DNA from: Ruditapes philippinarum
Taxonomy: Eukaryota
NCBI RefSeq assembly: GCF_026571515.1
Contig: NW_026852073.1
Span: 124,001 to 188,000, forward strand
Direction: 5' to 3'
DNA: 64,000 bases
Position numbers: made by a program. Shown in pieces: positions 33,001-45,000 of this stretch (within the stretch, counting starts at the first letter, position 1; each line of letters starts with the position of its first letter).

Positions 33001-36000
33001 AAGTTTTTTTCTCACTCCAATATGTGCTTTAGTATCAAATCAGCAAATAGTGTTACCAGTCGCATCTGAAATAAAATGGAGTTAACATTAATGCTTAATT
33101 TAAATGTTCAACAGAGATAAATAAATAAAACTAACATTTCAAAAAAGATGTACATAGATTTGATAATTAAATTGGGGATAATCTTAGAGTTTTGTTCATA
33201 TGCGGGGTTCTAGAGTGTTAAAATCATAAAATATATTTCTTTGTAGCAAGGACAATTTGTTTTTCTTTATAAATAACCACTTGGTCATACCAGTAGTAAA
33301 GGTAGATATATTTTAATAAACTTGGTCATTCATTGCTACGGAGAATGAGTTCGATTGTCTTGATTGCTTGATAATAGAAAAGTATAATCAGAGGAAGAAA
33401 AGGACATGTTTATGTCAAAATCAATTTCGCAGATCTACACGTATGTTCTTATCTAAAAATGGCTGTGGTTCATCAACAAATATTTCATGATTTCTTTTTT
33501 CAAACACCAAAACGTAAAAAGTTTAGATGCAAATATAAAACAAACAAACCTACATTAAATATCCGTAATTAATTCAATGAGGAATTCGACTTGTATCAGA
33601 GGAAATGACACACCATACCTTTTAAGACTAAACTAGTTTCATCTGCAGAATGTTTACCAGCGCCATCTGGAACACAGCGGTAAGTGCCGGCGTTGTCACA
33701 TTGCGTTGATGCTAAAACTAGCATCAGTTGACCACTGTTTCCGGTAATATAGCTTAATTCCGTTATTCTATTAAATCCGGTGTTAGTCTCTCCGTTCAGG
33801 AAGCTCGATATTATGGTACTGTTATCCTTGTAAATGACGATATCTGTCAAACCATCAAAGTCTTTAACTTTACAGATTAGGGTTACAGAATCTCCTATCT
33901 GTATTTGATCAACAAAGTTGTCAATGTATATGTCTGGAAATATATTTCAGAAAATGACACCTAGTGCTGATTGAACTCTTTATTTTCGTGTACTTATTCA
34001 ATCGAATAATAATTATAAATAAAATTACCTACCTTCTTACAGATAATCACAATGAGAGTAAAATTCCACAAAAGTAAAGACGCGCCCAAAGAAAGCCGCC
34101 CATGTACATGTATATACGCAACTTAAATAAATTGTTTCAACTATATAATTATGGTGATTACGTGTCAAGTAATAAAGTTTAAAAAATAATTTGATTACTG
34201 TTTGGGACAATTCAAGTTTGCAGTTAAAATTTATTCAATTATTATAAACTTGCTTTTTCAATATTTCTTTGATAATGTTATAAAAACACTTATATAACTA
34301 ACCTCTTCAATGTATTAAAGGGACTCCACTGAGGTTTTTTGACATGATGGGACTGAAAATATTATTCCAGATAATTCTACCATTTGTTGCAGGTTTAGAC
34401 CACAAACCTTTGTGCAAAATTTCAGATCATTCGCGCAGTTCGTTTTTTCCAGGATAATTATTCAACTTGTAAAAAATGACCCAAAATGAAAAGCGTTTAA
34501 ATACTTTTCACTCAAAACCGTAAAAATACGATTTTCAATTTATTTCTTAGTATATTTCTTAACTATTTTTGCATATATTTCTGTTTAAAGTGCCCCAGTT
34601 CATTTATGTAAGAAATTCAAATGTTATGTTTTTAGGCTTTTAAACCTCAGTGGAGTCCATTTAAGAAGCTTTTGTATAAATTTGTAACATAATCCTTTAA
34701 ATATACATGATCAATTTTTTATACGAAAACTGAAGCCACATATTATATAAGTCTTTAAATTCCTAGAATTACCTGTCACGGAACATCCGCCTATCGTTTT
34801 ACAAGGATAACACGTCGTCTCATGAAAGCAATTACCTTGCCCACAACCTGCCGGCACACCCGACACATCCCCGCTGTGGCACCCGACAAACATATTACAA
34901 TGATAGGGGTGTCTTAGGACTCCAGTATAGACCTGGTTTTGAGTGCAATAGTTTTCTAAAGAAAATTTAATATACAGGTAAATATAAACAAAGGGAATCA
35001 ACATTAAATAAATGCAATATCAACACCCTAACAGAACATCAAATTACTAAGGCACAGCGTAACGACACACGGCGGGGCACTGCAAAAGGAATTGGGCAAC
35101 GAAAGGGCATAAATGGACAGATGTAAAATAAAAATAATATAAATATCATAATAAGTTAAAATTAAGAAAAACAGAATCTCTAAAGAAAGTGCAACATGAC
35201 AAAATTGAAAATGTTGCAGGTTCGGTTTGAATAAGCCTGTTCACAGACGGTACTGGAAAGTGCAAGTTACCATCCACGCCCCCTAGCACCGGCATAAGCA
35301 GAACTCAAAGTTTAAGCCCTTATTACAGCATCTTTCTTCTTAAAAATATACTATACTCAAATTTGATATTACAAAATATGGATAATTGTTGCACAGTCTC
35401 TTTGTACATAAACAAGTAACATAATTATTTAGACTTCACATAAAGTATAACATTTTGTTTAAAATCCTACACACTATTGGTGGTCACAATATAAATATAT
35501 AGTGTCATTAAAAATGTTGCTGTGTCTATGGAAGTTACGTTCATTGAACGCCGCCTTTCCTTGTTTAACATATTTTAGGTAAAGGAACAACCCATACATA
35601 TTTTATTTATTTTTTTTAAACAAATTAGACATATTCATTTATAGATTTCAATAAATTTCTGTGATTCATATAGTTTACTCAGGGATGAGTATAATGCATC
35701 TTTAACATATTTTTTAGATCAGGGCTATCATGCTATCATGCATCTATCCATAAACTATAATCACTTGGAAATATATTCCAAACAACCAAACAATTAACTT
35801 TTAAATGTTTAATAGGGAAAAATATTAAATGTTCAAACCTGGGATAACCTCTATGACTTGATTAGAAGACTCGGCTGCCTTACCATCCATCAGAGCTTGT
35901 GACGGTTTAGATATACATTTCAAAAGTTTGTTGTGATATTTGGCCGTCGCAGTGTTTATTCGAAATTCAATGACTCTCCTAGTACTACATTGTCCATTGT

Positions 36001-42000: not shown

Positions 42001-45000
42001 AGTAACAATGAATGTATACAATATATCGCCATAAAAAGTTGCAAATGTAAAGAAAGTAGTATTTTGATTTCCATGCAAAATACTATACTATTTTTCAAAA
42101 ATCAACATAAGCAAAATTTGGTTCAGTTAATTGGCCGGTGTTGAAGGCCCATTATGCCTTGGAAATGCTTTTATTTTTATTATCCCCCGAGGGATATAGA
42201 AATAGTCTCCGTTCTTCCGTCCGTCCGTCCGTCCGTCCGTCCGACATTTTTGGCCCGAGCATATCTCAAAAAGTATTTGAGGTATAAACTTGAAACTTCA
42301 TAGGTGGATAGATCATATTGAGTAGGAGTGCAGTGCACAAGAATGAAAACTCTACCTGCATAATTTTTCAGTTATTGCCCTTTGTTATTTGTCAAATTTC
42401 CCTTTTGTCCAGAACATAACTCAAAAAGCCTGTGAGATATCAACGTGAAACTTCATAGGTGGATAGATCTTACTCAGGAAGTGTGCAGTGCACAAGAGTG
42501 ATAACTCTACCCTTCAAAATTTTTGAGTTATTGCCCTTTGTTATTTTTCATACTTAATTTTTCACCTGAGTGGAGCATATTAACTCAAAAAGTCTTTGAG
42601 ATGTCAACATGAAACTTCATAGGTGGATAGATCTTATTGAGGAGGAATGCTGAATTATAACTCTACCCTTTATCATTTTTGAGTTATTGCCCTTTGTTAT
42701 TTTTCATACAATTTGTCCGGAGCTTATCTCAAAAAATGTTAGAGGTATCAACTTGAAACAAAGTTACTTCATAGGTGGATAGATCTCATTAAGGAGGAGG
42801 GCAGCACACAAGAATGATAACCTACCCTGCATATTTTTTCAGTTATTGCCTTTTGTTATTTTCAGTCATCAGTATTCATATAGGTTTCAAATCTGTACTC
42901 ATTTCAGCCATCAGTTTTCATTACCAAAATACCTCTTGAAATTGAATTATTCTGCCCTACTACATATACATTCTTCTAATGAGTAAACACATTCGGCGGG
43001 GGATGGCCATGTTAACATGGCTCTTGTTTCTCTTTTTTATGTGTACTTTTATAGTATTCAAAAAGTTACTCATTTCTTTCCGTGGCATAATGTGCCTTTA
43101 AATATTTTGCAAATATAGCAGGACAACAAAAATTAGCGGGAAAAATGAAATAAGAATAAAATCATTTCGGGAACACTAAGGACATATCAAAGTAAAAGTA
43201 TATACATACGGTTAGGTGGATCATCTTTGACAAACACAAAATAAATAATAACGCCTGCAGCTATCAGAATTATAAGTACAAAGATCGTTGCAATAATACA
43301 TCTTTGTGGCGAGCATATATCATTCTTCTTTGTACTAGTACTATTTCGTGAATTTTGTACATGTGTAATTACGTTTGAATCTAAAATCTTATCGTATGTT
43401 GTGCTTGAACTTCTGGTTGAATCACTAAGATTGACTGGATCTTGTCCTAAGCTCACTTGTTGACTTCCACTTTGTAAATGATAAGAAACTATAGGAACTA
43501 GGCAACTGGCTGTACGTTCTTCAGTCCGCACATCTCTTTCACGTATAACTTTATTTATTTCTCGTACATCACGGTCTACTGTTTTTAATCTGATATGGCT
43601 TTCTGTGTGCGCATTACGGTCAACAGTTCCCGCTCTGGTTTTGTTTTCTGCATGCGCATTACGGTCCACAGGTCCCGTTCTGGTTTTGTTTTCTGCATGC
43701 GCATTACGGTCCACAGTTCCCGCTCTGGTTTTGTTTTCTGCATGCGCATTACGGTCCACAGTTCCCGATCTGGTATGCTTTTCTGCAAGCGCATTACGGT
43801 CCACAGTTCCCGATCTGGTATGCTTTTCTGCAAGCGCATTTCTATCCACTGTTCCCGTTCTGTTATAGTTTTCTGCACGTTTATTTCTGGTCACATTTCC
43901 CGTACTTGTATGGTTTTCTGCACGCGCATTCTGATCCACAGTTTTCGTACATGTATGGTTTTCTGCACGCTTATTACTGGCCACAGTTTCCGTAGAGGTA
44001 TGGTTATAATCAGTATTGGCATCTTGGTCTACTGTTTTATTGCTATCATGACTATTTAAAACTCCTACACGACCATCGACATAACTTGAAACAGTTCCGT
44101 TACTCACATCTGATTCCTTTGCGTATGAATACGGAGATTCTTGTGATAATAATTCAAGTTGAATGTACCCTTCTGTGACTATGAGTTCCTGTCCACTGTC
44201 ATGGATATTAACCCGATTGTCATATTCGGTGGAACGGTTAGTTTCAGCTTTTTTTCCAAGTCCATGGGTATCCATGATCTTTTTTTATAGTAAGCGGGAC
44301 AATTTATAAATCAAAACTTCCTACTCTATATATAAATCCAGATTATTTAAAGTGAATAACTTGATATTTATCTTTTTTTTATAATTTAACAACTGATCGA
44401 GACTGTAAGTAAAATCTTATTGTCAATCTTTTTTTAATGTAAACGGAATAATCAATACATACAATTTTAATGGTCTTTTGAAAATCACCAAGTGTATAAT
44501 TTCCTTTTAATTCTTCTTTTTTTACATAAAGTTATGCAGTCACGGTCAATCACGGGCATGTCGTTTAAAATATGTTCTATTGATATATATCTGGGAGTTT
44601 ATGAAACTTAATACTCACTACAATGTAAACCCACAAAACTGATCAGTTAATGAAATTTGAAGCAACATTGTATACACACCGGTCTCTCAAATATCGACCT
44701 TTGTCTTACGACGCATTACTTACACCAAATGAGGGTAAAAAATGACTCCGACATAAAGAAGTCCGCGAAGGAATGACAAGTTTATTTTTAAGACCTATGA
44801 ATTTAAGCAATGGAAATACAAATATCAGATAATTTCGTATATTTTTGCTAACAACGTGTTCAGTTTCTGTTTTAAGTAATACTAGTTGCAGGTGAAATAT
44901 ACGAGAGAATATAGTTTGAATGATATAAATATGATCAACATGATTATATTCTGTCGTTTATCCAGTTAGCAACTTGTGAAACGAATTTATAAATTATAAA

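What the first reader, a model, noticed from the sequence alone, without database searches (positions are those of the whole stretch)
33040..44275. Unusual architecture: type II TM + 3 Sushi + multiple Ig + chitin-binding module
Seen: CCP, Ig-like and a Cys-rich RHPYHC..F..C..C..CF..C exon all lie C-terminal to the TM. Established: Ig + chitin-binding combinations are known from secreted amphioxus/ascidian VCBPs, and Ig receptors are normally type I. Inference: a convergent, membrane-anchored VCBP-like pattern receptor assembled by phase-1 exon shuffling. The CBM14 call rests on Cys spacing only.
Basis: partly seen in the sequence, partly recalled or inferred. Interest (0 to 1): 0.68.

Follow-up and report, generated by a model that had tools for sequence, protein, structure and literature searches.

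The report
Partly decayed clam Sushi–Ig–peritrophin membrane gene
This is a bivalve gene for a membrane-anchored mosaic protein (Sushi, Ig-like and one chitin-binding-like module) that has an intact but unstudied relative in the hard clam, and the copy here has three broken middle exons, so it cannot make the full-length protein.

Summary
The observation largely holds. On the minus strand, 44275 to 33596, nine collinear coding exons encode an N-terminal tail with no signal peptide, one TM segment, three Sushi repeats, Ig-like modules, an 8-Cys module (34955-34773) and a terminal V-type Ig. All internal exons are phase 1. The CBM14 call now rests on more than Cys spacing, but every line is weak to moderate: Pfam CBM_14 E=0.031 (below cut-off), PDB 8in3 E=3.6e-5, own CBM_14 profile 23.2 bits against 11.7 or less for 2000 shuffles, and CBM14-type folds as the top fold and atlas matches. 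An intact 1371-aa relative, NCBI "uncharacterized protein LOC123556107" of Mercenaria mercenaria, has the same module order in one model, so the architecture is real but already in a public proteome, unstudied. It is either a gene that skips its dead phase-1 exons or a pseudogene. It is not a VCBP: three of four defining features fail. Ligand and immune role are untested.

The parts
43210..44275 (-). Exon 1: start codon, about 325-aa N-terminal (cytoplasmic) tail, TM segment (aa 326-349), phase-1 donor ACC|gtatgt
   Evidence: Open from the ATG with no stops. A single hydrophobic stretch, maximum 19-residue hydropathy 3.25, and no hydrophobic N-terminus. tblastn to P0003 residues 13-189 at 25-33% identity.
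43589..44005 (-). 45-nt tandem repeat, 9.3 copies, coding 15-aa repeats within the tail; absent from P0003
   Evidence: TRF score 447, 83% matches. 8 copies in register. Repeats visible in the translation.
40300..40824 (-). Exon with three Sushi/CCP repeats, 525 nt, phase 1-1, intact
   Evidence: Pfam Sushi E=6.6e-20, 3 stretches. 47-50% identical to each of the three Sushi triplets of P0003. Borders.
39679..40049 (-). Exon A: Ig-like module, 371 nt (one short of a multiple of 3), broken by TAG at 39945-39943 and a frameshift between 39724 and 39740
   Evidence: 37% identical to P0003 715-824. Profile-profile with module E P=5e-4 over 84 columns.
39024..39146 (-).
   Evidence: 50% identical to P0003 839-877.
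37752..37976 (-). Exon X2: second part of module X, 225 nt, phase 1-1, open
   Evidence: 44% identical to P0003 876-953. The X1/X2 junction reproduces P0003 'TVLG-EIVFQI'.
37116..37466 (-). Exon B: module with an Ig-like pattern, 351 nt, broken. It matches P0003 in frame -2 down to 37204, then in frame -1 at 37186-37142. There are stops in both frames before the GTAAGT donor.
35839..36210 (-). Exon C: intact 372-nt module, probably a C2-type Ig-like beta-sandwich
   Evidence: 54% identical to P0003 1075-1196. No Pfam or PDB sequence match. Atlas look-alikes are CD80-like C2-set Ig at 0.93. AF2 model pLDDT 46, all-beta. Foldseek returns Ig-type chains only, best E 0.09.
34773..34955 (-). Exon D: 8-Cys peritrophin-A/CBM14-like module, 183 nt, phase 1-1, intact
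33596..33933 (-). Exon E: terminal V-type Ig module and stop codon (33598-33596)
   Evidence: Pfam ig E=1.8e-7, 31.8 bits against cut-off 21.8. 59% identical to P0003 1258-1363. No further minus-strand coding exon seen below it.

Best explanation
The locus is a divergent copy of a clam gene family whose intact member is Mercenaria mercenaria LOC123556107. The family encodes a single-pass type II membrane protein. Its parts, in order, are an N-terminal cytoplasmic tail with conserved tyrosine motifs, a TM anchor, a stalk of Sushi repeats, Ig-like modules and, at the membrane-distal C-terminal end, a C2-like module, a peritrophin-A/CBM14-like module and a V-type Ig.

Inferred mechanism: the distal C-D-E tip binds a glycan or polyphenol-type ligand at the cell surface (chitin is the obvious candidate), and the tail passes this on through tyrosine phosphorylation.

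In this window, exons A, X1 and B carry at least five disabling lesions, while the other six exons keep open frames, all conserved cysteines and their splice sites. Because every internal exon is phase 1-1, the most likely state is a gene whose dead middle exons are skipped. That would give a shorter tail-TM-3 Sushi-C-CBM-Ig product.

Shown: anatomy, lesions, collinearity, domain calls. Inferred: topology, exon skipping, ligand, signalling.
For: - Collinear tblastn of P0003 over the whole locus, 25-61% identity per exon.
- P0003 is named by NCBI, and Pfam gives it 9 Sushi stretches plus V-set Ig.
- One hydrophobic segment in the whole of P0003 and in exon 1, no signal-like N-terminus, K/R on the N-side.
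- Conserved tail blocks, including TTYD[KR]I.
- CBM14 evidence, line by line:
  - Pfam CBM_14 is the only family at E<=10 (E=0.031).
  - PDB 8in3 E=3.6e-5 and 7bwe E=0.47.
  - 5 of the 10 library hits are Pfam CBM_14 repeat proteins.
  - A profile of 84 such repeats scores the exon at 23.2 bits. The best of 2000 shuffles scores 11.7, and the best unrelated window ORF 6.7; the 551 ORFs include the exon's own, at 21.4 bits.
  - The P0003 module scores 18.2 bits.
  - The top 3 Foldseek PDB hits are 8in6, tachycitin 1dqc and 8in3.
  - The top 4 atlas clusters are all CBM_14 or chitin-binding type-2.
- Lesions.
- Clustering: all 5 lesions fall within 845 of 3554 coding nt, p=0.0008 under uniform decay, or 0.013 if counted as one event per exon.
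Against: - There is no transcript evidence for this locus. Searches with exon C and exon 1 for an annotated longer protein found none. The tool calls that weak evidence, and one search also missed P0003.
- The Pfam score for the Cys module is below the gathering cut-off (14.9 against 22.1). P0001 gets only E=0.33, and P0003 has no CBM_14 hit at E<=10.
- No Foldseek match reaches E<=0.001 (0 of 102, best 0.29), and the model has pLDDT 65.7.
- The five proteins used to build my CBM_14 profile were chosen by similarity to this exon, so the profile is not fully independent.
- Lesions may not be independent events, which weakens the clustering test.
- The tail is rich in N-x-S/T sequons (visible), which is unusual for a cytoplasmic segment, though it follows from its N/T/S-rich composition.
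- The 'EGYIQL' motif is not conserved in P0003, which has 'SVYFEF'.
- Peritrophin-A folds do not always bind chitin.
Confidence: 0.5

Rival explanations
1. The whole locus is a dead pseudogene copy of the LOC123556107-type gene. No functional product is made, and the open state of the other exons only reflects recent inactivation.
For: At least five disabling lesions in three exons. No annotated protein for this locus was found. The copy has a single Sushi triplet where P0003 has three, and a repeat expansion in the tail. A degenerate C1q copy nearby shows that gene decay occurs in this region.
Against: If decay were uniform, about 3.8 of 5 lesions should fall in the 76% of coding sequence that is intact, and none does (p=0.0008 to 0.027, depending on how events and exons are counted). 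All conserved cysteines and all splice sites of the six open exons are kept.
Confidence: 0.32
2. The gene is intact and full-length in the animal. The stops and frameshifts are assembly or consensus errors, or belong to a null haplotype.
For: Bivalve assemblies are highly heterozygous (my own knowledge). Exon B keeps a length that is a multiple of 3 despite its internal frame change.
Against: Two of the lesions are base substitutions that create TAG and TGA, which is not the usual indel error type. Five errors within 845 nt, next to 2709 error-free coding nt, would be odd for a random assembly error process.
Confidence: 0.08
3. Same protein family, but the role is structural rather than immune: a mantle or epithelial surface protein that tethers cells to the animal's own chitin framework (shell or other chitinous matrix).
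For: Papers on mollusc shell-matrix proteomes mention both Sushi and chitin-binding terms. I saw only the search listing and the starts of abstracts. The closest PDB sequence hits include squid beak chitin-binding protein 7bwe.
Against: Shell-matrix proteins are secreted, whereas this one is anchored. The conserved tyrosine motifs in the tail suggest signalling. The neighbours are C1q-domain genes, though adjacency is weak evidence.
Confidence: 0.2

Closest known systems
Mercenaria mercenaria uncharacterized protein LOC123556107 isoform X2 (P0003, 1371 aa; NCBI name)
   Same: Same order of parts: tail, TM, Sushi, modules A, X, B, C, the 8-Cys module, terminal V-type Ig. Collinear by tblastn at 25-61% identity per exon. 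All 8 Cys of module D are conserved. Similar short C-terminal end.
   Different: P0003 has three Sushi triplets (9 stretches) against one here. It has no 15-aa tail repeats. It is open throughout, whereas the window copy has at least 5 lesions. It is a computed gene model, and I found no paper on it.
[quoted passage not shown]
   Same: V-type Ig and a single chitin-binding-type module in one polypeptide. An immune recognition role has been proposed for VCBPs (passage in PMC7916673).
   Different: VCBPs have two tandem IgV domains followed by the chitin-binding domain and are secreted (recalled). Here there is a type II anchor, Sushi repeats, only one Pfam-level V-type Ig, and the Cys module lies between Ig-like modules. 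No sequence relationship beyond shared domain types was tested or seen.
Peritrophin-A / CBM14 domains (tachycitin 1dqc, Aplysia EHEP 8in3/8in6, chitotriosidase CBM14 6so0, Avr4, Der p 23)
   Same: Core signature G-x3-HP-x2-C-x2-F-x2-C-x2-G...C-x2-G-x2-F. A six-Cys framework compatible with CX15CX5CX9CX12CX5-9C: here C-x16-C-x5-C-x12-C-x13-C-x5-C. Best fold matches.
   Different: Two extra cysteines between C4 and C5. Below the Pfam cut-off. Embedded in a membrane Ig/Sushi protein instead of a secreted mucin-like or peritrophic protein. Ligand unknown.
Type II C-type lectin receptors with a tyrosine motif in the N-terminal tail (Dectin-1/CLEC-2 type; recalled, no call)
   Same: What it may work like: N-in, C-out orientation, a membrane-distal carbohydrate-binding tip, and a tyrosine motif in the N-terminal tail.
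   Different: No C-type lectin domain. The 'EGYIQL' motif is not conserved in P0003. Only TTYD[KR]I and two other Tyr blocks are conserved. No evidence of kinase recruitment.

Membership tests
LOC123556107-type clam membrane mosaic proteins | Same modules in the same order along one gene | tested here: met
   tblastn of P0003 gives 12 collinear minus-strand matches from 44248 to 33620, with alignments.
LOC123556107-type clam membrane mosaic proteins | Continuous open reading frame through all modules | tested here: not met
   TAG in exon A, TGA in X1, a frameshift in A, and a frame change plus stops in B.
Sushi/CCP (PF00084) | Pfam score above the gathering cut-off, four-Cys repeats | tested here: met
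   71.7 bits against cut-off 20.7, 3 stretches.
Immunoglobulin superfamily | Pfam Ig-type model above cut-off | tested here: met
   This row refers to exon E only: ig 31.8 bits against 21.8. Exons A, X, B and C have no Pfam hit at E<=10. A relates to E by hhalign, P=5e-4. C has only atlas and low-confidence fold leads.
CBM14 / peritrophin-A (PF01607) | Pfam score above the gathering cut-off | tested here: not met
   14.9 bits, E=0.031, cut-off 22.1. P0001 11.6 bits. P0003 no hit at E<=10.
CBM14 / peritrophin-A (PF01607) | Six-Cys framework and the aromatic/HP core motif | tested here: met
   C-x16-C-x5-C-x12-C-x13-C-x5-C plus two extra Cys (sequence), against the published pattern. The core aligns to positions 1-35 of a 39-position profile built from 84 CBM_14 repeats, 23.2 bits against 11.7 or less for 2000 shuffles.
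CBM14 / peritrophin-A (PF01607) | Tachycitin-type fold | tested here: inconclusive
   AF2 pLDDT 65.7. The top three Foldseek PDB hits are 8in6, 1dqc and 8in3, and five more CBM14-type entries are listed, but 0 of 102 matches reach E<=0.001 (best 0.29, TM 0.53-0.56).
CBM14 / peritrophin-A (PF01607) | Binds chitin | not testable with these tools
   Needs a binding assay. EHEP and Der p 23 share the fold and do not bind chitin.
VCBP | Two tandem N-terminal IgV domains | tested here: not met
   Only one Pfam-level V-type Ig, at the C-terminus. Definition taken from PMC7916673.
VCBP | Single chitin-binding domain following the V domains, at the C-terminus | tested here: not met
   The Cys module (exon D) lies between modules C and E.
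VCBP | Secreted, with a signal peptide and no membrane anchor (recalled) | tested here: not met
   No hydrophobic N-terminus, and one internal TM at aa 326-349 of exon 1.
VCBP | At least one V-type Ig and one chitin-binding-type module in one polypeptide | tested here: met
   Exons E and D are adjacent in the same gene, and P0003 carries both in one model.
Type II single-pass membrane protein | No cleavable signal peptide, one TM, N-terminus inside | tested here: inconclusive
   Hydropathy and flanking charges fit, and disulfide-rich modules must be extracellular (established knowledge). No dedicated topology predictor was available, and the joined protein was not analysed.

The most novel reading that the evidence does not exclude
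A clam-lineage family of type II-anchored receptors presents a C2-Ig / peritrophin-A / V-Ig tip on a Sushi stalk and signals through tyrosine motifs in its N-terminal tail. That would be an independent invention of 'Ig plus chitin-binding' recognition, working like the type II lectin receptors of vertebrates. On this reading, the copy here stays alive by permanently skipping three dead phase-1 cassette exons, which would show modular exon loss in progress.
Probability: 0.15. Interest if true: 0.6.

Novelty: new variant of a known kind. Interest (0 to 1): 0.38.

Why it matters
Bivalves have very large, fast-changing repertoires of recognition molecules. Membrane-anchored receptors that combine Ig and peritrophin-type modules did not appear in the literature I could search. 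If the intact relatives bind chitin or microbial glycans and signal through the tail, they would be a second, independent 'Ig plus chitin-binding' solution beside the protochordate VCBPs. They would also be an invertebrate analogue of type II lectin receptors. The window copy adds a small evolutionary point: decay confined to symmetrical phase-1 exons. As it stands, the finding is a mosaic of common extracellular modules, already present as an uncharacterised model in a public proteome, in a damaged copy.

Tried and rejected
- Exon C against longer proteins found none. Exon 1 against longer proteins found none. P0003 residues 715-1371 found only itself, 1 of 7999 scored candidates. The tool states these negatives are weak, and one search missed P0003 although it is 54% identical.
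- PDB sequence search with exon C found 0 hits at E<=10.
- The AF2 model of exon C has pLDDT 46. Its Foldseek matches are therefore only a hint.
- A poly(A)-signal scan was uninformative in this AT-rich DNA: 250 matches against 207 expected.
- The hemITAM idea for 'EGYIQL' was dropped because the motif is not conserved in P0003.
- I first read the ~1 kb between X1 and X2 as an insertion defect. I rejected that because a phase-1 donor and acceptor pair restores the P0003 junction.
- In hhalign, modules X, B and C against E were not distinguishable from the controls.
The exon structure of LOC123556107 stayed unchecked.
- Supplements of papers are closed and were not consulted.
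Full report
**What the window is.** The 64-kb window has 32% G+C and no N runs. Its neighbours are bivalve-type genes: three C1q-domain genes on the + strand (Pfam C1q E=7.8e-18, 6.7e-15 and 4.4e-15) and a tyrosine-kinase gene further on. The closest named relative of the gene in question is from the hard clam Mercenaria mercenaria. I take the window for a bivalve genome, not human.

**Anatomy.** The gene lies on the minus strand. Stop-to-stop frames, splice-site scans, base-level views and a coordinate check give nine coding exons:

| Exon | Coordinates | Length (nt) | Content and state |
|---|---|---|---|
| 1 | 44275-43210 | 1066 | tail and TM, open |
| Sushi | 40824-40300 | 525 | three Sushi repeats, open |
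| A | 40049-39679 | 371 | Ig-like, broken |
| X1 | 39146-39024 | 123 | first part of module X, broken |
| X2 | 37976-37752 | 225 | second part of module X, open |
| B | 37466-37116 | 351 | Ig-like pattern, broken |
| C | 36210-35839 | 372 | probable C2-type Ig-like, open |
| D | 34955-34773 | 183 | 8-Cys module, open |
| E | 33933-33596 | 338 | V-type Ig and stop, open |

Exon 1 ends in phase 1, and every internal exon begins and ends in phase 1. I found no coding exon on the minus strand below 33596. The frame simply runs seven codons past the nominal donor to a stop, much as the C-terminus of the relative does.

- **Sushi exon:** Pfam Sushi E=6.6e-20 with three stretches.
- **Exon E:** Pfam ig E=1.8e-7, 31.8 bits against a cut-off of 21.8.
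- **Exons A, X, B and C:** of the 8 open frames scanned at E<=1, five had no family at all. Of the 6 trimmed exon peptides scanned at E<=10, four had none.
- **Exon 1:** no domain. It has a 45-nt tandem repeat of 9.3 copies and one hydrophobic segment at aa 326-349, with no signal-like N-terminus and K/R on the N-side.

Sushi, Ig and Cys-rich modules are disulfide-bonded extracellular modules (established knowledge). With that, type II topology is the reasonable reading, but it is an inference.

**The Cys-rich exon.** I now have five lines of evidence, none decisive alone.
1. Pfam CBM_14 is the only family at E<=10, with E=0.031 and 14.9 bits, below the 22.1 cut-off.
2. Against PDB sequences only two entries match at E<=10. 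They are 8in3 (E=3.6e-5, three stretches) and squid beak chitin-binding protein 7bwe (E=0.47). 8in3 is Aplysia EHEP, made of three peritrophin-A domains (abstract and passages of PMC10619976).
3. A full HMMER pass over 1.84 billion representatives gave 10 proteins at E<=0.001. By Pfam, 5 of the 10 are multi-repeat CBM_14 proteins, P0003 is Sushi plus Ig, P0001 has no family, and the other three have no CBM_14.
4. A profile built from 84 repeats of those five proteins scores the exon at 23.2 bits. The best of 2000 composition-matched shuffles scores 11.7. Among 551 window open frames the exon's own frame scores 21.4, and the next best 6.7. The alignment covers the core G-x3-HP-x2-C-x2-F-x2-C-x2-G...C-x2-G-x2-F, and the P0003 module scores 18.2 bits. 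One caveat applies: the five proteins were picked by similarity to this exon.
5. An AF2 model (pLDDT 65.7) finds 8in6, tachycitin 1dqc and 8in3 as its three best PDB matches. Avr4 (6bn0, 4z4a), chitotriosidase CBM14 (6so0), Der p 23 (4zce) and Blo t 12 (2mfk) come further down. But 0 of 102 matches reach E<=0.001, and the best is 0.29. The atlas's four best look-alike clusters are all CBM_14 or chitin-binding type-2, at 0.81-0.87, which the tool rates as a lead only.

The cysteines read C-x16-C-x5-C-x12-C-x4-C-x5-C-x2-C-x5-C. That is the published six-Cys frame with one extra pair, and all eight are conserved in P0001 and P0003.

I conclude it is peritrophin-A/CBM14-like, probability about 0.8. 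Chitin binding itself is not shown, and the same paper states that EHEP and Der p 23 do not bind chitin.

**The intact relative.** P0003 is 1371 aa and is named by NCBI 'uncharacterized protein LOC123556107 isoform X2 [Mercenaria mercenaria]'. Its parts run in this order: tail, one TM, nine Sushi stretches, modules A, X, B and C, the 8-Cys module, and a V-set Ig. tblastn maps it collinearly onto the window:

| Part of the window gene | Identity to P0003 |
|---|---|
| tail | 25-33% |
| Sushi | 47-50% (all three P0003 triplets fall on the one window exon) |
| A | 37% |
| X1 | 50% |
| X2 | 44% |
| B | 42% |
| C | 54% |
| D | 61% |
| E | 59% |

This argues that the window's exons belong to one gene, and that the architecture is real and not a chance neighbourhood of exons. 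It also means the architecture already exists in a public proteome, unstudied. I found no paper holding the locus name. Three further searches found none describing such a combination: by listing only, and by listing plus passages from two of the listed papers.

P0001 (118 aa, 95% identical) is an open frame read through exon D into both flanking introns. It says nothing about splicing.

**Damage in the window copy.**
- **Exon A:** a TAG at 39945-39943. Its match to P0003 moves from frame -2 (down to 39724) to frame -3 (39740-39699). That fits its length of 371 nt.
- **X1:** a TGA at codon 21.
- **Exon B:** it matches P0003 in frame -2 down to 37204 and in frame -1 at 37186-37142. Both frames meet stops before the GTAAGT donor at 37116. 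A return to the entry frame is implied by the 351-nt length but was not shown by alignment.

That makes at least five lesions, all within 845 of 3554 coding nt. If the whole gene decayed uniformly this has p=0.0008, or 0.013 if counted as one event per exon. If X2 is counted with the damaged exons, the values are 0.0025 and 0.027.

The six open exons keep their splice sites and conserved cysteines. Because all internal exons are phase 1-1, skipping A through B keeps the frame. I therefore rank the possibilities as follows:
- dead cassette exons in a gene that is otherwise maintained: about 0.45-0.5;
- whole-gene pseudogene: about 0.3;
- assembly or haplotype artefact: about 0.1.

Only transcripts or population data can decide.

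**How many Ig modules?** Profile-profile comparison of two-sequence module alignments covered 21 pairs, with Sushi and D as negative controls. It links A to E (P=5e-4, 84 columns). X-C is weak (P=0.016, 25 columns). B is not above the controls, which range from 0.027 to 0.66. Exon C has atlas look-alikes of the CD80-like C2-set kind at 0.93 with recognition 2009, below the tool's mark of 2300. Its poor model (pLDDT 46) retrieves only Ig-type chains, best E 0.09. 'Multiple Ig' is thus firm for E and A, probable for C, and pattern-based for X and B.

**Function.** This is inferred, not shown. In a type II protein the C-terminus is the membrane-distal end, so the C / peritrophin-like / V-Ig trio would be presented on a Sushi stalk. 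The tail shares blocks with P0003, including TTYD[KR]I just before the TM. This fits a surface receptor or adhesion protein for a glycan ligand with phosphotyrosine signalling. A structural role in tethering cells to the animal's own chitin is the main functional rival.

**Comparison with VCBPs.** VCBPs are described as two tandem IgV domains plus one chitin-binding domain. Of the four features I listed, only the co-occurrence of the two domain types is met. The resemblance is one of domain types, not of family.

**Left out or unchecked.**
- The joined spliced protein was not built, searched or folded, so no whole-protein topology or structure run was made.
- Cluster membership could not be looked up.
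- Animal genome loci could not be fetched.
- Paper supplements are closed.

Noticed in passing
window 1823-4183, 16735-19180, 21516-23372 (+ strand): Three tandem two-exon genes. Each has a signal/coiled-coil exon followed by a C1q-domain exon (Pfam C1q E=7.8e-18, 6.7e-15, 4.4e-15). The first exon of the third copy is much shorter (168 aa open frame).
   Followed up: partly
window ~31120-31500 (+ strand): Short open frames resemble the start and core of the C1q exons (for example 'KKVAFSAKQSY...' and 'FTAPKLGIYLFIF') but are broken over several frames. This is probably a decayed fourth C1q copy just downstream of the gene studied.
   Followed up: no
window 45982-61892 (+ strand): A multi-exon gene. 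An SH2-like motif ('WYHGRI...') is visible in one exon, by eye only (no Pfam hit at E<=0.001). Two exons match the tyrosine-kinase domain (PK_Tyr_Ser-Thr E=1.1e-17 and 1.3e-18). It lies next to a putative receptor with tyrosine motifs in its tail, which may be coincidence.
   Followed up: partly
window 48001-64000 against 1-48000: CpG observed/expected drops to 0.40-0.52 over the kinase gene and stays at 0.75-1.21 over the C1q cluster and the receptor gene. The pattern fits germline methylation of the kinase gene body and none over the other genes (inference).
   Followed up: no
window 43589-44005 (- strand, within exon 1): A 45-nt tandem repeat (9.3 copies, 83% matches) encodes 15-aa units of the type TVDRNAHAENKTRAG. 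It is absent from the Mercenaria relative, so it is a recent in-frame expansion of the tail.
   Followed up: partly
window 42208-42862: Intron 1 holds a (TCCG)9 microsatellite and a 156-nt tandem repeat of 3.8 copies.
   Followed up: no
window 32297-32368 and 41564-41635; 35240-35308 and 38024-38092: Short interspersed repeats: an inverted pair 89% complementary, and a direct pair 78% identical. One copy lies in the X1-X2 intron, next to exon X2. These are probably SINE-like elements.
   Followed up: no
P0001 (118 aa) against window 34711-35019: A library protein 95% identical to exon D continues into both flanking introns. It is therefore an open-frame call on unspliced DNA from the same or a sister species. 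Differences are 3 of 60 residues in the exon and 6 of 37 in the flanks (by eye).
   Followed up: partly
window 34836 (- strand): Exon D holds a second strong phase-1 donor (AAG|gtaatt) inside it. If used, it would give a 120-nt exon that cuts the Cys module after its fourth cysteine.
   Followed up: no
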